Origin: Candidatus Hermodarchaeota archaeon
Lineage (GTDB): Archaea > Asgardarchaeota > Lokiarchaeia > Sigyniarchaeales > SOKP01
DNA length: 56,120 bases
Direction: 5' to 3'
Assembly: GCA_048885525.1 (NCBI GenBank)
Contig: JBHLLP010000019.1
Span: 3,930 to 60,049, forward strand
Shown: in pieces, positions 34,959 through 55,462 of the stretch
Layout: each line of letters starts with the position of its first letter
How positions within the stretch are numbered: the first letter of the stretch is position 1
Notes under the pieces: generated by a model
Database searches by the model: none
Seen by the model: the letters and a program-made list of their open reading frames with translations, nothing else
Told to the model about the DNA's origin: nothing
Made by a program: the position numbers and the translations under genes

Positions 34959-35480
34959 ATGCCTCAGAAGTTCATCTTAAAGATCTTGACAGCAGGGGAG
35001 GGAGGAGTAGGTAAAACCACGCTCCTCCATCGTTATGTGGAGGGAAAGTTCTCAGCCGATACGAAAATGACTATAGGAGTTGAGTTTTTCTTGAAAGAGA
35101 CTATAATTGATTCCAAACAATGCACTCTGCAACTCTGGGATTTTGGTGGCCAAGAAAGATTTCGCTTTTTACTTGAAAGTTATGTATTAGGAGCAAAGGG
35201 CGCACTTCTTATGTTTGACCTTACCCGTTTAACCACATTAGAGAATTTGCAACAATGGATCAATATTGTGCGTAAAGGTGATCCTCATCTCCCTGTTCTC
35301 TTTTTAGGGACAAAATTGGATTTAGCAGAAGAGATTATGGTTGATGATGATTATGCAATGTCATTTTTAAATGAATTCAATTTAATTGACTTCATGAAAA
35401 TCTCTTCAAAGACGGGCGAAAATGTTTCGGAAGCTTTTGATATTTTAACAAGAAAAATATTAGAGCGTCAAGCCTATTGA
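34959..35480 (+). CDS. Rab/Ras-like small GTPase
   Basis: GEGGVGKT, TIGVEF, WDFGGQERF, TKLD, SSK; no C-terminal prenylation Cys. Confidence 0.92.
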   Translation: MPQKFILKILTAGEGGVGKTTLLHRYVEGKFSADTKMTIGVEFFLKETIIDSKQCTLQLWDFGGQERFRFLLESYVLGAKGALLMFDLTRLTTLENLQQWINIVRKGDPHLPVLFLGTKLDLAEEIMVDDDYAMSFLNEFNLIDFMKISSKTGENVSEAFDILTRKILERQAY

Positions 35481-36046: not shown

Positions 36047-36577
36047 ATGTTAAAAAGAAAGAACCCCAAACCAATTTTGCTTAAAATAATCACATGTGGA
36101 GAAGGAGGGGTTGGAAAGACCACACTCCTACACAGATACATTGAAGGTGTTTTTCTCCCAAACTCTTTAATGACAATAGGAGTCGAATTTCACATCAAAG
36201 AACTTGAAATTGAAGGCAATAAGATTCTTCTTCAAATATGGGATTTTGGAGGTCAAGAAAGGTTTAGGTTCTTGCTTAAAAATTATGCAGCTGGAGCAAG
36301 AGGGGCAATTATGTTATTTGACCTCACCAGACTATCAACCTTACAGCGAATTGAACAATGGGTTGATATTTGTAGAGAAAAAAATCCAGACATTCCAATT
36401 ATATTTTTAGGCACAAAATTGGATTTGATCAAAACAGAAACGATTGATGATATATTTGCCGAAAAAATTATGGAGGAATATAATTTTTTTAATTATTTAA
36501 AAATATCATCCAAAACAGGAGAGAACGTGAATTTAGCTTTTGAATCATTAGCAAAAGAACTTGTAAAAGACTTGTAA
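36047..36577 (+). CDS. Rab/Ras-like small GTPase
   Basis: GEGGVGKT, TIGVEF, WDFGGQERF, TKLD, SSK; paralogue of 34959. Confidence 0.92.
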   Translation: MLKRKNPKPILLKIITCGEGGVGKTTLLHRYIEGVFLPNSLMTIGVEFHIKELEIEGNKILLQIWDFGGQERFRFLLKNYAAGARGAIMLFDLTRLSTLQRIEQWVDICREKNPDIPIIFLGTKLDLIKTETIDDIFAEKIMEEYNFFNYLKISSKTGENVNLAFESLAKELVKDL

Positions 36578-47442: not shown

Positions 47443-47655
47443 TTATTCATCATCTTCTTCTTCTCCCAACAAAACCTCTATTTTATTTTCGAGATCTTCA
47501 ATTTTCTGTTCAAGCGCTTCAATTTTTTTATTAGTTTCACATGTTGCGCATCCATCATCTTCGTCACATTGTGGAAGCGTATCACAGACCTCTTGAAGTT
47601 CATCCATTTCTTCTAATAATTTATCAACTTCATCTTGTAATTCATCAATACTCAA
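47443..47655 (-). CDS. small acidic coiled-coil protein with central 4-Cys knot
   Basis: Heptad helix - CDTLPQCDEDDGCATC - heptad helix; TTG 47655 follows AGGTG. Confidence 0.65.
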   Translation of the reverse strand: MSIDELQDEVDKLLEEMDELQEVCDTLPQCDEDDGCATCETNKKIEALEQKIEDLENKIEVLLGEEEDDE

Positions 47656-47776
47656 ATTTAACACCTTAATTTTTTTAAGATAATAAGGATACGATTATTT
47701 AATTTTTTTTTGGTTTAAATACTTAAATTAATAAGGGACTAATGTTTTAAATAATTTTTAACTTATTCTAGAAATA

Positions 47777-48772
47777 ATGGTAGTGCAAAAAGATTTTGTA
47801 GAATTAATCAAAAATTTAACCGACAAATCTACTTTAGAACGAGCAGAATCAATTTCAAATAAGTGTATAAGGATTTTAAAGATAGATAAAGAAATTGGTT
47901 TGATTGAAGCAGAAGTACAAGGTAATAAATTATTTCCATACAAATTTAATTTTAACATTTCTCAAAAAAATCTATATGATGTTATATATCATAATTGTCC
48001 AGATTATTTAGCACGAAAGAAGCCAAATAACAAATTTTGTAAGCATATTATAAAAGTCTTTAATCTTTTAAACAATCAAGATTCAGAGTTTATACATGGT
48101 TTATTGCAAGAATTTGATTCTAAAATATCTAAAAATAATCAAGATAAAAAAATTGATTTACATGATTTTAATCATTTTGTTAACAAGGATCTTAAAAACC
48201 AACTAGATTTTGATTATAAAGGATTTAATTTCTTTTTTGACATTACTAAATTAAAGAATTCTGCGAAAAATTGTTTAAAAGAAATTTTAATTGAAGCAAA
48301 GAGATTACCTGCAGCTTTAAAAGGATTTCATGGAGGTTATGAAGGAGGATTATTTGATCATATTTTATTGGTGACAAATTATGCGTATAAATTAAGTAAA
48401 TCTATAGAATACAACGTTGACGTTAAAAAAGCAGTCTTAACTGCTATCTATCATGATTTTGGCAAGATCTCATATTATTCTATTAAAAGAAACAATATTG
48501 CTTCAAAAATAGCGGTAGATCGGGAAGAATTAGATATAATAAATGAAGACATTGTAAGAAAGTTTAATTATGAGGGAAGAGATTATCACGTTGAAGAGGC
48601 ACTAGCAATCATTAAAAGAAACAGTCATATCTTATTTTTTGATGATGAGATGTATCAAGCAATAATATTCCATCATGGTCAATGGAGCAAATACTATCCA
48701 GTAGAAATGAACGAATTAGCAACATTAATACATAAAGCAGATATGATTGCAAGTCAAACTCATTTTGTATAA
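47777..48772 (+). CDS. SWIM-like Zn finger + HD-domain phosphohydrolase (YhaM-like HD)
   Basis: HNCPDY...FCKH; FHGGYEGGLFDH, YHDFGK, HHGQW, HKADMIAS. Confidence 0.75.
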   Translation: MVVQKDFVELIKNLTDKSTLERAESISNKCIRILKIDKEIGLIEAEVQGNKLFPYKFNFNISQKNLYDVIYHNCPDYLARKKPNNKFCKHIIKVFNLLNNQDSEFIHGLLQEFDSKISKNNQDKKIDLHDFNHFVNKDLKNQLDFDYKGFNFFFDITKLKNSAKNCLKEILIEAKRLPAALKGFHGGYEGGLFDHILLVTNYAYKLSKSIEYNVDVKKAVLTAIYHDFGKISYYSIKRNNIASKIAVDREELDIINEDIVRKFNYEGRDYHVEEALAIIKRNSHILFFDDEMYQAIIFHHGQWSKYYPVEMNELATLIHKADMIASQTHFV

Positions 48773-48812
48773 TCTAGATATTTTAAAATAGAAATAATAT
48801 GTAAGAGTTCAA

Positions 48813-49490
48813 TCAATGTTCTTGTACTTCTTTTAAGGTATCTAGTATTTCAGTAATTTCTTCTTTTTTACGATATCTTTTAAATATTCTTTTATAACTT
48901 TTAACTGATTTTTTAATTAATTCTATTGTTTCTTTTGGAATATCATCTTCAGAAATTTCAATATTCTGGGTCATTAAATCTAACCCTACAGTCAATTTAT
49001 ATGGCTCTGAAAAGCTCTTTTTAGTAAAAGTTCTTATGAGTGAAGATTTGCCAACTGCAGCTGCTCCAGCGAGTAAGATTTTAAATCTAAAATGATTTGA
49101 ATCTACAATTTCTCCAAGACGTGGTTTTAAATCCAATAATGCTGTAATAGCGAATCGGTAAAATAATTTCTCAACATTTTCATTCTCTAAAGCGGAAGTT
49201 TCGATATATTCGAATAAGTAATATTGATTTACTTTTTCTATGATTTTTTCTTTAGGTATCATTTCTCCTATATCTTTTTTTAAATCAATCTTATTACCAA
49301 TTAAAAAAATCGGAATATTACCAGATATATCTCGGATTTCATTAAAATATTCATCTATTTGACTAAAAGTATCGGAACGACTTAGATCAAAAACTAATCC
49401 TAAAACTGCAACACCTTTGAAAAAATCAGTCTTAAAAAAATCAAATCGTTCTTGTCCTCCCGTATCCCATAGTGATAATGTGACTTTCAA
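48813..49490 (-). CDS. circularly permuted Rab-like small GTPase (G3-G4-G5-G1-G2)
   Basis: Motif order WDTGGQERF, GNKID, ETSA, then GAAAVGKS, TVGLD. Confidence 0.85.
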   Translation of the reverse strand: MKVTLSLWDTGGQERFDFFKTDFFKGVAVLGLVFDLSRSDTFSQIDEYFNEIRDISGNIPIFLIGNKIDLKKDIGEMIPKEKIIEKVNQYYLFEYIETSALENENVEKLFYRFAITALLDLKPRLGEIVDSNHFRFKILLAGAAAVGKSSLIRTFTKKSFSEPYKLTVGLDLMTQNIEISEDDIPKETIELIKKSVKSYKRIFKRYRKKEEITEILDTLKEVQEH

Positions 49491-49509
49491 TTAATTATCA
49501 TCCCTCTAT

Positions 49510-50220
49510 TCATTTTATTGGTTCCCAGATACCGATGTATTCATCAAAAATATTGTAGATTTTATTAAATCCCATAGCTTTATAAAAATCTTTAAGACTT
49601 TTTTTGTTATGATTCCATTGTGATCTTTTTTTAAATGTATTAATACCATCGTTATCTAAGAAGAAGAAATCAGCAATTTTGAATAAAGTTTTTGGTAAAT
49701 ATTTTCCTAAGTAGATAACGATCTTTAAAATCTTATCTCGAGCAGAAATCTCTTTAGGATTAACTGTATAAGGTTCACAAATTATTATTTTATTCGCAAT
49801 ATTTTTAGCGATGTTAATTAAATCAATATGTTTTGGATATATATGATGTAAAGTATCACTAATAACAATTACATCCTTTTTTTTGCCTTGATAATGTCGA
49901 AAGTCAAAAATGTTTTTTTGATGTAAGATAATTTTTTCTAATTTAATATTTCTTTTTTTTAATTCCTTGCCTTTAATTCGCTTTAGAAATCGATGATTTA
50001 GATCTACACCCTCATATTCTATCGCAGGATGCAAAAAACGCATCAAATATCCAGTACCACATGGCAAATCCAAAACTCTTTTTGGACCTTTTCCAATTAG
50101 TAACGCAATTGTAAGAAATTTTGTGTCTTGGTTATACAATCTCCTAGTAATTGCGTTATAGAGCCACCCACTCCGGTATAATATACTTCTAAAACGGGTT
50201 AATGCGTTTTTTGATTGCAT
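49510..50220 (-). CDS. class I SAM-dependent methyltransferase
   Basis: VLDLPCGTG, GVDLN, DTLHH. Confidence 0.8.
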   Translation of the reverse strand: MQSKNALTRFRSILYRSGWLYNAITRRLYNQDTKFLTIALLIGKGPKRVLDLPCGTGYLMRFLHPAIEYEGVDLNHRFLKRIKGKELKKRNIKLEKIILHQKNIFDFRHYQGKKKDVIVISDTLHHIYPKHIDLINIAKNIANKIIICEPYTVNPKEISARDKILKIVIYLGKYLPKTLFKIADFFFLDNDGINTFKKRSQWNHNKKSLKDFYKAMGFNKIYNIFDEYIGIWEPIK

Positions 50221-50248
50221 AGTGAAAAAAAATAAATTTGATTTAGGA

Positions 50249-52300
50249 TTAAGGGCGTGGAAGGGAATTCATTTTTTCTTCAACTTTTTTATTCAAATCA
50301 TTTATTTTTTTTTCTAATAATTTAAGCTCTTTATTAATTTCCTCAAATCTACTCTCTTGATCGCTAAGTTTTTTTACATATCTTTCTTTTAAAGCAATTG
50401 ATTGACTATCCTCACCTAAAACAGAAATATTCTCTCTTAGACGAGATTGTTCGTCAGTCATTGTCTCTCTTTCTTCAATTAATTTTTCCTGTGTAACTCT
50501 AAGATCATTTAATGTTTGAATTTGTTCTGCGATCTCTTTCAATTGATTCTCTAAATTAGATTCGATAAACTTCTTTTTGACATAAAAACTAACTCGTTTT
50601 AGTAAATCTTCTTTACTGTAATTCCATAAATATATGCTTGTATAGTTTTCTCTTTGTTCTTTTAATTTAAAGTTTATTGCATCCTTTGGTTTTAAAGATA
50701 TTTTAAATCTCCAATAATTTGTAGTTTCTTCAGGTTCAATAGGTTTCTCTATTATTTTAAAATCGAATGTCTTGGGATGATCAAGATAAAGTTCCTTTTC
50801 TTCATCGGTTTTATTTTTTATTTTATAAGTAGTTGTTGCATTAGTATAATAATATTCGTAAGAATAGCCACTTTCAAAAGTAACTTTATGCACACTTAAA
50901 TTTTCAGATTCCTGGTTATGATTTATTATTACAGCTTGTTCTATAGCAAAATTCAATAACCTTATATCACCTTTGTTTAGGAAAGGGATAATAGCTTCAC
51001 CGGCAAGAGTATCATCATATATAATTGTTGCTGGACCTCTTTCCAGTGTTAGATTAGTGTTATTTGTAATTTCTAGGCAAGCATTTGGATTTTTATCATG
51101 CTCATTTTTATTATAAAGTAAAATTCTTTTTGCCTTAATCGATTCAGTAAGTATTGGAACTAGAGCAGATTGCTTTCTTTTAATTGTTACTGGATTAGAA
51201 ATATTATATTCAAATAATTCTCCTAAATCTTTTGTTTGAGTTTTAACTTGAGATTTTACCTTATCAAAAATTTCATCATCAGACATAATACTTTGATAAG
51301 CACCATAACCAGCTGAAGAAGCGGGTGCAGAAGGAGCTCGACCTCCAACCATAGCAGCTTTAGCTTTTGTCTTCATCGCCATTGGTTTTGCTTCCATTTC
51401 TGCCATGGCATAATCTTCAAATTTCTCAATCTCCAATCCCTCTTCAATTTCTGATGGTCTGGCACTTAAAACTTTGGGTGGTTGGATAACTGGTCTTTGG
51501 ATGAAAATGGGTCTATAAAATTCATAAATAAACGAGACGGGCATACCAGCGACTAAAGATAATTCAATATCTTCCCAATCTTGGTTTGTAGTATTTTCAA
51601 TAAGACTCCAACCAGAAATTAGACACTTTTCCTCTAAAGCTTGCTGCTTACTCATTATTAATCGATAGGATGTTTTCCAGATAGGACTTTCACGAATATA
51701 TGATACAAAAATGTTTCTTTCAATCTCATTATCTCCACCAGATTCACAATTTATTATAATCTTTTTAGCATCTTTCTTTTTTCCTGCAATAACAGTATCC
51801 AAGAAAAATTTTAAATCTTTTTTGATTTCCTCATTCATAATTTCTAAAGAGCGAATTTCTGAGAAGTTATATTTAGTTATCAATCCATCATCTTGATGTA
51901 GAGTTAATGATTTTTCAGTGATTTTTTCTTCTTTACTCAATTTTTCATCGTATTCTATTCCCATTATCTTTCCTGTGATTTTCTTGGCACCACCAATCGT
52001 TAATATTACATCAGCTCCTTTAATTTGTGTCACAAGAGAAGAAAAAGAATCTCGATCTGGAATATTTAACATTATAGATTTTAGTAATTGATTAGTTTCT
52101 AATGCCGCATCATAAGATATCGAGGATATATACCCTTTTTTACTTGTATCGAGTACAAATAGTGATTTTAATACATCATTCATCTCATCAATCTTAAATT
52201 CAATTTCAAATTTACCAGAACCCTTCAAGATCCCTTCGAGAATATAATAAGATACTCCGTGTTTAAATATAATAACTCTTTTTACTTTTAACTTTGACAT
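50249..52300 (-). CDS. DUF4139-like protein with C-terminal coiled coil
   Basis: IFKHGVSY, MNDVLKSL, PIWKTSYRL, ENTTNQDW...LSLVAGMP, GELFEY, QSRLRENI. Confidence 0.75.
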   Translation of the reverse strand: MSKLKVKRVIIFKHGVSYYILEGILKGSGKFEIEFKIDEMNDVLKSLFVLDTSKKGYISSISYDAALETNQLLKSIMLNIPDRDSFSSLVTQIKGADVILTIGGAKKITGKIMGIEYDEKLSKEEKITEKSLTLHQDDGLITKYNFSEIRSLEIMNEEIKKDLKFFLDTVIAGKKKDAKKIIINCESGGDNEIERNIFVSYIRESPIWKTSYRLIMSKQQALEEKCLISGWSLIENTTNQDWEDIELSLVAGMPVSFIYEFYRPIFIQRPVIQPPKVLSARPSEIEEGLEIEKFEDYAMAEMEAKPMAMKTKAKAAMVGGRAPSAPASSAGYGAYQSIMSDDEIFDKVKSQVKTQTKDLGELFEYNISNPVTIKRKQSALVPILTESIKAKRILLYNKNEHDKNPNACLEITNNTNLTLERGPATIIYDDTLAGEAIIPFLNKGDIRLLNFAIEQAVIINHNQESENLSVHKVTFESGYSYEYYYTNATTTYKIKNKTDEEKELYLDHPKTFDFKIIEKPIEPEETTNYWRFKISLKPKDAINFKLKEQRENYTSIYLWNYSKEDLLKRVSFYVKKKFIESNLENQLKEIAEQIQTLNDLRVTQEKLIEERETMTDEQSRLRENISVLGEDSQSIALKERYVKKLSDQESRFEEINKELKLLEKKINDLNKKVEEKMNSLPRP

Positions 52301-54934: not shown

Positions 54935-55462
54935 TTAGTGCGAATCCCTATTTTTAAGTATTAATTTTGTTAGAAGACTAAAGATTTTATGAATATTCTC
55001 ACCAGTTTTGGAACTACACTCGAAAAATCCATCTGCTCCCTTAATCATTGCTAAATCCATTGCCTTTTTTGTAGAAACTTCCTTTAAATGCATTAAATCA
55101 GTCTTTCCACCAACAAAGACGATTGGTATTTTATAGTTAATTTCTTTCTCAACAATTTCAAACCAATCATCTACATGGGCAAGTGAACCATAATTTGTAA
55201 TATCATACATAAAGACAGCTCCATTGGCTCCTCTAATGTAAGAGGGAAATAGAAATCTAAATCGTTCTTCTCCCGCAAAATCCCATATCTGCAATTTCAC
55301 CATCTCTCCATCTGATTCAATAGCTTTAAGGTGAAAATCTACACCAATAGTCATAGTAATATCTTCTTTAAATAAATTCGTTAAAAATCTATGAGTTAAC
55401 GTTGTTTTGCCAGTCTGACTTTCTCCAAATATTACAATCTTAAACGTGGAAGTGTAGGACAA
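54935..55462 (-). CDS. Rab/Ras-like small GTPase
   Basis: GESQTGKT, TIGVDF, WDFAGEERF, GKTD, ECSSK. Confidence 0.9.
   Translation of the reverse strand: MSYTSTFKIVIFGESQTGKTTLTHRFLTNLFKEDITMTIGVDFHLKAIESDGEMVKLQIWDFAGEERFRFLFPSYIRGANGAVFMYDITNYGSLAHVDDWFEIVEKEINYKIPIVFVGGKTDLMHLKEVSTKKAMDLAMIKGADGFFECSSKTGENIHKIFSLLTKLILKNRDSH

What the first reader, a model, noticed from the sequence alone, without database searches (positions are those of the whole stretch)
48813..49490. Circularly permuted Rab-like small GTPase with G3-G4-G5-G1-G2 order
Seen: the protein starts at strand beta3 (KVTLSLWDTGGQERF), continues through NKID, ETSA and the last helix, then a short linker, beta1/P-loop (FKILLAGAAAVGKSSL), switch I (TVGLD), beta2 (LMTQNIEI) and a charged helical tail. 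All motifs are intact and the break lies in the beta2-beta3 hairpin, a structurally tolerable site. The upstream gene is an unrelated methyltransferase, so G1/G2 are not simply lost to a frameshift. Established: well-known permuted GTPases (YlqF/RsgA family, cpRAS) have G4-G5-G1-G2-G3 order. Inference: an independent permutation, perhaps from a trimmed tandem duplication, that puts switch I and switch II at opposite ends of the chain.
Basis: partly seen in the sequence, partly recalled or inferred. Interest (0 to 1): 0.75.

Follow-up and report, generated by a model that had tools for sequence, protein, structure and literature searches.

The report
Circularly permuted Asgard Rab-like GTPase
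This Loki-type Asgard archaeon carries a real, strongly conserved Rab-like GTP switch whose two sequence halves are swapped (it starts at strand 3 and ends at strand 2); the same swap has been known since 2008 from the eukaryotic cpRAS domain, so this is an apparently undescribed and probably independent archaeal case, not a new topology.

Summary
ORF 48813-49490 (-) encodes a 225-aa protein with motif order G3-G4-G5-G1-G2. Residues 2-118 align to Rab30 74-188 and residues 130-182 to Rab30 21-73, so the break lies exactly in the beta2-beta3 hairpin.

It is not an artefact. It is single-copy and present in 49 of 53 genomes of the genus, and median dN/dS is 0.12. All five G motifs are invariant in 80 homologues. 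An AlphaFold model (pLDDT 83.8, pTM 0.80) forms one G domain.

cpRAS (Elias & Novotny 2008) already has this order, so the topology is known. This family differs from cpRAS in four ways: it is Rab-like, archaeal and stand-alone, and its ancestral form had a C-terminal transmembrane tail. The window's copy has lost that tail and keeps a basic helix.

A fused two-domain Lokiarchaeota GTPase aligns across its domain junction, which fits an origin by fusion and trimming. The flanking genes form a variable slot and point to no partner. The likely role, a membrane-proximal GTP switch, is inferred.

This scan has already noted the family in at least 23 other genomes. The papers I searched do not describe it.

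The parts
48813..49490 (-). Gene for the circularly permuted Rab-like small GTPase (225 aa, TTG start; stop codon at 48813-48815)
   Evidence: ORF and translation. Pfam Ras 121 bits in two out-of-order stretches. Rab30 alignment in two swapped pieces. Orthologues at 70-86% identity. dN/dS about 0.12.
49137..49487 (-). N-terminal part, residues 2-118: beta3, switch II/G3 (DTGGQ, 9-13), beta4-beta6, G4 (NKID, 66-69), G5 (TSA, 98-100) and helix alpha5
   Evidence: Aligns to Rab30 74-188. Rab and Rho structures align to model residues 1 to 119-124 at Z 12-13 and rmsd 1.5-2.2 A. D9, G12, K67, D69, S99 and A100 are invariant in 80 sequences.
49101..49130 (-). Conserved linker joining alpha5 to beta1, residues 121-130 (LKPRLGEIVD)
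   Evidence: R124, G126 and E127 are nearly invariant across the family. The next residues (nhFrFK) align with the N-terminal lead-in of canonical Rabs.
48945..49100 (-). C-terminal part of the G domain, residues 131-182: beta1, P-loop/G1 (GAAAVGKS, 142-149), alpha1, switch I/G2 (T167) and beta2
   Evidence: Aligns to Rab30 21-73. G142, G147, K148, Y164, T167 and D171 are invariant. YlqF-type permuted GTPases align structurally over model residues 13-178.
48816..48935 (-). C-terminal conserved helix, residues 186-225, with a polybasic stretch (KKSVKSYKRIFKRYRKK). This copy has no transmembrane segment.
   Evidence: Modelled as one long helix, with pLDDT 88-92 for residues 171-200. P185 and E187 are nearly invariant. 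Many homologues continue into a C-terminal hydrophobic helix.
49510..50220 (-). Upstream class-I SAM methyltransferase gene, 19 nt from the GTPase start. It is a frequent but not obligate neighbour.
   Evidence: Pfam Methyltransf_12/31/25. Synteny. Present without the GTPase in some genomes and absent from others that have it.
50249..52300 (-). 683-aa gene with a weak DUF4139 match and a C-terminal coiled coil. It is the upstream border of the variable slot that holds the GTPase.
   Evidence: Pfam DUF4139 E 0.033, below the cut-off. Synteny. Present in 38 of 42 genomes of a sister genus that lacks the GTPase.
47443..47664 (-). 73-aa acidic coiled-coil protein with four Cys. It is the downstream border of the variable slot.
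   Evidence: Conserved next to the 683-aa gene whether or not the GTPase lies between them. It gives only sub-threshold coiled-coil Pfam hits.

Best explanation
The gene encodes a functional small GTPase of the Ras superfamily, closest to Rab, whose single G domain is circularly permuted. The chain begins at strand beta3 and switch II, runs through G4, G5 and helix alpha5, crosses a conserved linker (PRLGE) into beta1/P-loop, alpha1, switch I and beta2, and ends in a conserved helix.

The old N- and C-termini and the beta2-beta3 turn all lie on the face away from the nucleotide. The rewiring therefore keeps the nucleotide pocket intact and still lets a tail leave from the distal face.

The family belongs to one order of Loki-type Asgard archaea. 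It most likely arose once, when two adjacent Rab-like G domains fused and both outer ends were then trimmed. This was independent of the eukaryotic cpRAS domain, which has the same order.

The ancestral protein was anchored by its own C-terminal transmembrane helix. The window's copy has lost that anchor and keeps only the conserved basic helix.

It most likely works as a GTP/GDP switch at or near the membrane.
- Shown here: the permutation, conservation, purifying selection, motif integrity, the one-domain model, and monophyly of the main family.
- Inferred: GTP binding and hydrolysis, membrane association of this tail-less copy, the route of origin, and independence from cpRAS.
For: Permutation:
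- Two out-of-order alignments to Rab30 abut exactly at the beta2/beta3 boundary.
- Pfam Ras matches in two stretches.

A real gene under selection:
- More than 120 homologues show 70-86% identity over the full length.
- It is single-copy in its own genome, which is 99% complete.
- It is present in 49 of 53 genomes of the genus, 63 of 134 of the family, and 2 of 14 of a second family of the order. It was found in none of the other Asgard families sampled at E<=1e-40.
- Median dN/dS is 0.116 over 42 pairs.

Intact active site: D9, G12, K67, D69, S99, A100, G142, G147, K148 and T167 are invariant, and Q13 and N66 are at least 90% conserved, in 80 sequences.

One domain:
- The AlphaFold model has pLDDT 83.8 and pTM 0.80. 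Only the two switch loops are uncertain.
- Rab and Rho structures align to residues 1 to 119-124 at Z 12-13.
- YlqF, Lsg1, YqeH and RsgA (G4-G5-G1-G2-G3 GTPases) align over 13-178 with 137-146 residues at Z 11.4-13.0. The relocated P-loop segment therefore sits in its normal place.

Single origin: 32 Asgard permuted sequences form one clade (SH-aLRT 98) among canonical relatives.

Route of origin:
- The fused two-domain Lokiarchaeota protein P0155 (MBN2150267.1) aligns contiguously, query 3-171 to 59-229, across its domain junction.
- The window's genome has three adjacent canonical GTPase genes.

Rab-like rather than Ras-like: the 60 best PDB sequence hits shown are Rab/Ypt-type, including a Thorarchaeota Rab. 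G2 reads YKLTVGLDF and G3 reads WDTGGQERF.

Tail: every outgroup genus and the second subfamily carry a C-terminal hydrophobic helix, and the window's clade lacks it.
Against: - No biochemical data exist.
- The P-loop has Ala at the positions equivalent to Ras G12 and G13 (GAAAVGKS). This could mean slow hydrolysis.
- Independence from cpRAS was not tested in a joint tree, because no cpRAS sequence could be retrieved here.
- Two further permuted sequences fall outside the main clade: P0252 from another Asgard MAG and P0260 from a foraminiferal transcript. The number of origins among all permuted forms is therefore open.
- Gene context gives no partner. The neighbours occur with or without the GTPase.
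- Membrane association of this tail-less copy rests only on its basic helix.
Confidence: 0.82

Rival explanations
1. The Asgard family and eukaryotic cpRAS share one origin. Either the eukaryotic domain descends from an Asgard permuted GTPase, or the gene was transferred between the two.
For: Both have the same motif order and the same break point in the beta2-beta3 turn. [quoted passage not shown]
Against: - The authors place cpRAS in the RAS family, with the TIE G2 motif, and find it only inside large VWA or macroglobulin-like eukaryotic proteins.
- This family is Rab-like and stand-alone.
- It is confined to one order of Loki-type genomes: 66 of 400 sampled Asgard genomes, all in two families.
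Confidence: 0.06
2. The protein binds nucleotide but is not a cycling switch. It would be a constitutively GTP-bound or structural pseudo-GTPase.
For: Ala occupies both positions equivalent to Ras G12 and G13 in this subfamily (GAAAVGKS). In Ras, changes at these positions impair GAP-stimulated hydrolysis (established knowledge of Ras).
Against: The catalytic Gln (Q13) and the switch I Thr (T167) are conserved across the family. The second subfamily has GAGGVGKT or GDSGVGKT. Many active GTPases carry non-Gly residues at these positions.
Confidence: 0.1
3. The GTPase works specifically with its operon neighbours: the 683-aa DUF4139-like protein, the methyltransferase or the 73-aa coiled-coil protein.
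For: In the window the three genes are 28 and 19 nt apart on one strand. The order is repeated in most of 55 related loci.
Against: - Sister genera have 683-aa gene -> 73-aa gene, or 683-aa gene -> methyltransferase -> 73-aa gene, with no GTPase.
- The 683-aa gene is present in 38 of 42 genomes of a genus where the GTPase was found in 1 of 42.
- It was not found in several near-complete genomes that have the GTPase.
- The methyltransferase is likewise uncoupled.
- The pattern is that of a variable slot, not a fixed module.
Confidence: 0.12
4. The ORF is an artefact: a chimeric assembly, a mis-called gene, or a decaying remnant of a tandem fusion.
For: The non-ATG (TTG) start and the unusual order would fit a mis-call in a single genome.
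Against: The same architecture occurs in more than 60 independent genomes and many metagenome contigs. dN/dS is about 0.12. All G motifs are invariant. The one-domain model is confident. A stop codon lies directly before the start, with a ribosome-binding motif upstream.
Confidence: 0.01

Closest known systems
cpRAS domain of eukaryotic CPRas proteins (Elias & Novotny 2008, Biol Direct 3:21, PMC2430557)
   Same: Both are Ras-superfamily G domains with order G3-G4-G5-G1-G2. In both, the chain is broken in the beta2-beta3 turn and alpha5 is joined to beta1.
   Different: cpRAS is RAS-family (TIE G2 motif) and described as eukaryote-specific. It is embedded in 840-3900-aa proteins with VWA or macroglobulin-like domains. 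This family is Rab-like, archaeal and stand-alone (207-280 aa in the window's subfamily, up to 755 aa in a second subfamily with no Pfam domain). Its ancestral form had a C-terminal transmembrane helix.
YlqF/YawG/RsgA (YRG) circularly permuted GTPases
   Same: Both are natural circular permutations of a P-loop GTPase domain. Their structures align with the model over residues 13-178 at Z 11.4-13.0.
   Different: The order there is G4-G5-G1-G2-G3, cut after beta3/G3, not before it. They are ribosome-assembly factors of the TRAFAC class, universal in distribution, with extra RNA-binding domains. Pfam RsgA_GTPase and MMR_HSR1 score below their cut-offs here.
Canonical Asgard Rab-like GTPases (for example the Thorarchaeota Rab, PDB 7ezb) and eukaryotic Rab30, Rab11 and Rab7
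   Same: These are the best sequence matches for both halves, with Rab-type G2 and G3 motifs. The window's genome has dozens of such canonical-order genes.
   Different: They have canonical order G1 to G5. Eukaryotic Rabs use C-terminal prenylated Cys, whereas this protein has no C-terminal Cys and uses a helix, with or without a transmembrane tail.
Fused two-domain Ras-like GTPase of Lokiarchaeota (P0155, MBN2150267.1)
   Same: It is 31% identical over a contiguous alignment that runs from beta3 of its domain 1, through alpha5 and the linker, into the P-loop and switch I of its domain 2. It shares the YKLTVG.D and WDLG.Q..F motifs.
   Different: It keeps both complete domains (355 aa, two Pfam Ras stretches). 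It is a model for the intermediate and is not shown to be the ancestor.

Membership tests
Ras superfamily small GTPase (Pfam PF00071 Ras) | Significant match to the family profile | tested here: met
   121 bits against a cut-off of 21.6, E 4.8e-35.
Ras superfamily small GTPase (Pfam PF00071 Ras) | All five nucleotide-binding motifs G1-G5 are present | tested here: met
   GAAAVGKS, T167, DTGGQ, NKID and TSA are all present. The key residues are invariant in 80 homologues.
Ras superfamily small GTPase (Pfam PF00071 Ras) | Single alpha/beta G-domain fold | tested here: met
   This rests on a predicted model only: pLDDT 83.8, pTM 0.80. Rab and Rho structures align at Z 12-13 over residues 1-124, and YlqF-type structures at Z 11.4-13.0 over residues 13-178.
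Ras superfamily small GTPase (Pfam PF00071 Ras) | Canonical linear order G1-G2-G3-G4-G5 | tested here: not met
   The order is G3-G4-G5-G1-G2.
cpRAS domain (Elias & Novotny 2008) | Order G3-G4-G5-G1-G2 with the break between beta2 and beta3 | tested here: met
   Query 130-182 aligns to Rab30 21-73, and query 2-118 to Rab30 74-188. The definition is taken from the paper.
cpRAS domain (Elias & Novotny 2008) | RAS-family affinity, including the TIE G2 motif | tested here: not met
   G2 reads YKLTVGLD. The 60 best solved-structure sequence hits shown are Rab/Ypt-type.
cpRAS domain (Elias & Novotny 2008) | Embedded in large eukaryotic proteins with a VWA (Sec23/24 trunk) or macroglobulin-like region | tested here: not met
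   The protein is a 225-aa stand-alone archaeal protein with no other Pfam domain. The longer relatives also lack any Pfam domain beyond the G-domain families.
cpRAS domain (Elias & Novotny 2008) | Falls in the monophyletic cpRAS clade in a phylogeny | not testable with these tools
   No cpRAS sequence could be retrieved. The search for longer proteins listed none with a VWA domain among its best 120.
YlqF/YawG/RsgA (YRG) circularly permuted GTPases | Order G4-G5-G1-G2-G3 | tested here: not met
   G3 (DTGGQ, residues 9-13) precedes G4 at the N-terminus.
YlqF/YawG/RsgA (YRG) circularly permuted GTPases | Match to the family profiles (RsgA_GTPase, MMR_HSR1) | tested here: not met
   RsgA_GTPase scores 14.2 bits against a cut-off of 30. 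MMR_HSR1 scores 19.6 against 21.9, on the P-loop only.
Rab family (eukaryotic sense) | C-terminal Cys prenylation motif | tested here: not met
   The sequence ends ...LKEVQEH, and the protein has no Cys.
Rab family (eukaryotic sense) | Closest similarity to Rab sequences and Rab-type switch motifs | tested here: met
   Rab30, Rab11, Ypt31, a Thorarchaeota Rab and Rab7 are the top hits. The protein has WDTGGQERF and TVGLDF-type motifs.

The most novel reading that the evidence does not exclude
The permutation may be more than a neutral rewiring. It could create a new coupling between nucleotide state and the membrane. Strand beta2, the strand that shifts in the Arf 'interswitch toggle', now runs directly from switch I into the conserved C-terminal helix and the ancestral transmembrane anchor. 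GTP-dependent movement of switch I and beta2 could then reposition the G domain on the membrane, or expose the basic helix in tail-less copies. That would give an Arf-like membrane switch built on a Rab-like scaffold.
Probability: 0.12. Interest if true: 0.75.

Novelty: new variant of a known kind. Interest (0 to 1): 0.5.

Why it matters
Anand and colleagues argued that breaking the beta2-beta3 turn of a GTPase should prevent folding. cpRAS was the single counter-example, and it has never been studied biochemically.

A second family with the same cut is therefore useful. It is probably independent, abundant, small and stand-alone, and it is under strong purifying selection. It shows that this site is repeatedly permissive in nature. 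It also offers an easily expressed protein on which the structural and kinetic effects of this rewiring could be measured.

The family also adds to the known repertoire of small GTPases in Asgard archaea, which is central to ideas about the origin of eukaryotic membrane trafficking. Its ancestral form is anchored by its own transmembrane tail, not by a lipid.

It does not change the general picture, and its cellular role remains unknown.

Tried and rejected
- **First AlphaFold run.** With only 16 close homologues the model was weak (pLDDT 60.7, pTM 0.60). Foldseek with that model aligned only about 116-123 residues to Rab and Rho structures. I replaced it with the 80-sequence run.
- **Search for fused forms and for cpRAS itself.** A profile search among 495-2000-aa proteins returned mostly eukaryotic multi-GTPase gene models and canonical Rab fusions. 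None of the best 120 had a VWA domain. cpRAS sequences were therefore not obtained, and no joint tree could be built.
- **Operon-partner idea.**
  - I tested synteny and phyletic patterns for the 683-aa protein and the methyltransferase.
  - I also inspected the same locus in genomes without the GTPase.
  - The neighbours are independent of the GTPase, so I rejected a fixed functional module. I ran no further search on a neighbour.
- **Tandem intermediate in the window's own genome.** The '420-aa open frame' turned out to be three separate adjacent GTPase genes of 176, 204 and 176 aa, not a fusion. The fused example comes from another Lokiarchaeota MAG.
- **Literature.** Seven full-text searches combined circular permutation, cpRAS, Asgard, Lokiarchaeota, small GTPase, Rab-like and transmembrane. 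I also ran word searches inside two Asgard GTPase papers. None described a permuted Asgard GTPase. The library lacks most subscription journals, so this is not proof that none exists.
- **Model coordinates.** These were not available to scripts. I could not do a direct permutation-aware superposition on Rab and used the YlqF-type alignments instead.

Full report
**1. What is in the sequence**

- The ORF at 48813-49490 on the minus strand encodes 225 residues.
- It begins with TTG. An in-frame TAA lies directly before the TTG, and a GAGGG motif lies a few bases upstream.
- The next possible in-frame start is at residue 77. The protein therefore starts one residue before strand beta3.
- The preceding gene (49510-50220, minus strand) ends 19 nt upstream. 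It is a class-I SAM methyltransferase by Pfam.
- The window has about 29-31% G+C. Its relatives are labelled Promethearchaeota or Lokiarchaeota MAGs.

**2. Is it a circular permutation?** Yes.

- Pfam Ras matches at 121 bits in two stretches. The larger covers residues 2-114 on profile positions 47-157 of 162.
- Against PDB sequences, residues 130-182 align to Rab30 21-73 (beta1, P-loop, alpha1, switch I, beta2). Residues 2-118 align to Rab30 74-188 (beta3 to alpha5). The two pieces abut exactly at the beta2/beta3 boundary.
- The motif order is G3 (DTGGQ), G4 (NKID), G5 (TSA), G1 (GAAAVGKS), G2 (T167).
- The 60 best hits shown are Rab/Ypt-type: Rab30, Rab11, Ypt31/32, a Thorarchaeota Rab and Rab7.

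**3. Is it a real, working gene?**

- It has more than 120 homologues at 70-86% identity over the full length, all starting at the same point.
- It is the only permuted copy in its 99%-complete genome, among dozens of canonical-order small GTPase genes.
- At E<=1e-40 among 400 Asgard genomes:
  - It is found once per genome in 49 of 53 genomes of the genus.
  - It is found in 63 of 134 genomes of the family.
  - It is found in 2 of 14 genomes of a second family of the same order.
  - It is found in no other family.
- Pairwise dN/dS against 42 orthologues has a median of 0.116.
- In an 80-sequence alignment that reaches 30% identity:
  - D9, G12, K67, D69, S99, A100, G142, G147, K148 and T167 are invariant.
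  - Q13 and N66 are at least 90% conserved.
  - The linker motif PRLGE is also conserved.

**4. Does it fold as one domain?**

- With 16 close sequences AlphaFold was unsure (pLDDT 60.7).
- With 80 sequences it gave pLDDT 83.8 and pTM 0.80. Low confidence remained only at residues 13-16 and 159-169, which are the two switch loops.
- Canonical Rab and Rho structures align to model residues 1 to 119-124 (Z 12-13, rmsd 1.5-2.2 A).
- The YlqF/Lsg1/YqeH/RsgA group has the order G4-G5-G1-G2-G3. It aligns continuously over residues 13-178 (137-146 residues, Z 11.4-13.0).
- That second set of matches shows that the relocated beta1/P-loop/alpha1/beta2 segment sits in its normal position relative to beta4-beta6.
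- This evidence rests on a model, not a solved structure.

**5. What is already known**

It does not.
- Elias & Novotny (2008, PMC2430557) describe cpRAS as G3-G4-G5-G1-G2, with the bond between strands 2 and 3 missing. They presented it as a correction of the claim that this permutation cannot fold.
- The topology is therefore known.
- cpRAS is, however, a RAS-family domain with the TIE G2 motif. It is described as eukaryote-specific and sits inside large VWA or macroglobulin-like proteins.
- The present family is Rab-like, archaeal and stand-alone.
- Seven literature searches and two in-paper searches found no description of a permuted Asgard GTPase.
- This scan has already noted the same family in at least 23 other genomes, with the same conclusion.

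**6. Family structure and origin**

- I un-permuted the sequences in silico and built a tree with 46 canonical relatives. The 32 Asgard permuted sequences form one clade (SH-aLRT 98) with two subfamilies:
  - The first is the window's short form.
  - The second has C-terminal extensions, reaching 755 aa in total, that match no Pfam family.
- Two other permuted sequences fall outside this clade:
  - One is a 520-aa protein from another Asgard MAG.
  - The other is a Rab7-like foraminiferal transcript.
  - Their status is open.
- A 355-aa Lokiarchaeota protein with two complete Ras-like domains aligns contiguously with the window protein.
  - The alignment runs from beta3 of its first domain into the P-loop and switch I of its second (query 3-171 to 59-229, 31% identity).
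- The window's own genome holds three adjacent canonical GTPase genes.
- This fits the classic route of fusing neighbouring copies and then trimming both ends. It does not prove that route.

**7. The tail**

- All orthologues from the more distant genera, and most of the second subfamily, end in a strongly hydrophobic 18-22-residue helix.
- On a tree of the core domain rooted on the most distant genus, the tail-bearing state is basal. The window lies in a clade without it.
- The window's protein keeps the conserved helix that follows beta2. This includes the stretch KKSVKSYKRIFKRYRKK.
- Membrane association of this copy is an inference from that basic helix.

**8. Gene context**

- In the window the 683-aa gene, the methyltransferase and the GTPase lie 28 and 19 nt apart on one strand. 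Most of 55 related loci repeat this order.
- Genomes without the GTPase have either 683-aa gene -> 73-aa gene, or 683-aa gene -> methyltransferase -> 73-aa gene, at the same place.
- The presence patterns of the neighbours across 135 genomes do not track the GTPase.
- An HD-domain gene is inserted in the opposite direction in part of the genus, including the window.
- The GTPase therefore sits in a variable slot. No partner can be inferred from position.

**9. Verdict**

- The claim of a new motif order is wrong, because cpRAS already has it.
- The finding remains a probably independent and apparently undescribed archaeal variant of a rare rearrangement.
- Its biochemical activity and cellular role are untested.

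Noticed in passing
window 47443-52300, compared with L071-L079: The stretch between the 683-aa DUF4139-like gene and the 73-aa acidic four-Cys coiled-coil gene is a variable slot. Related genomes hold nothing there, or the methyltransferase, or the methyltransferase plus the GTPase, or the GTPase alone, with or without a reversed HD-domain gene. The 683-aa and 73-aa genes look like the real conserved pair. Neither has a known function.
   Followed up: partly
P0128, P0129, P0132 and P0143 (metagenomic and MAG proteins): A second subfamily of the permuted GTPase carries C-terminal extensions, giving proteins of 543-755 aa. These extensions match no Pfam family. Several have a hydrophobic segment in the last 60 residues.
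   Followed up: partly
P0260 (EukProt, Bolivina argentea transcript): A 243-aa Rab7-like foraminiferal sequence has the same G3-G4-G5-G1-G2 order and groups with a canonical sequence in the tree. It could be another independent permutation or a transcript-assembly artefact.
   Followed up: no
L081 4001-5563 (GCA_016840025.1, JAEOTF010000371.1): A 520-aa permuted GTPase (P0252) from another Asgard MAG falls outside the main permuted clade, at an unsupported position. It has a hydrophobic segment about 40 residues before its C-terminus.
   Followed up: partly
window about 35121-35441 (+), 36221-36574 (+) and 54974-55300 (-): Three canonical-order Ras-like small GTPase genes lie in the same window. 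The coordinates are converted from the own-genome matches.
   Followed up: no
L003 1330-3195 (own genome, contig C5): Three canonical small GTPase genes (176, 204 and 176 aa) lie head to tail with gaps of 75-115 nt. An array of this kind could give rise to fused tandem domains.
   Followed up: partly
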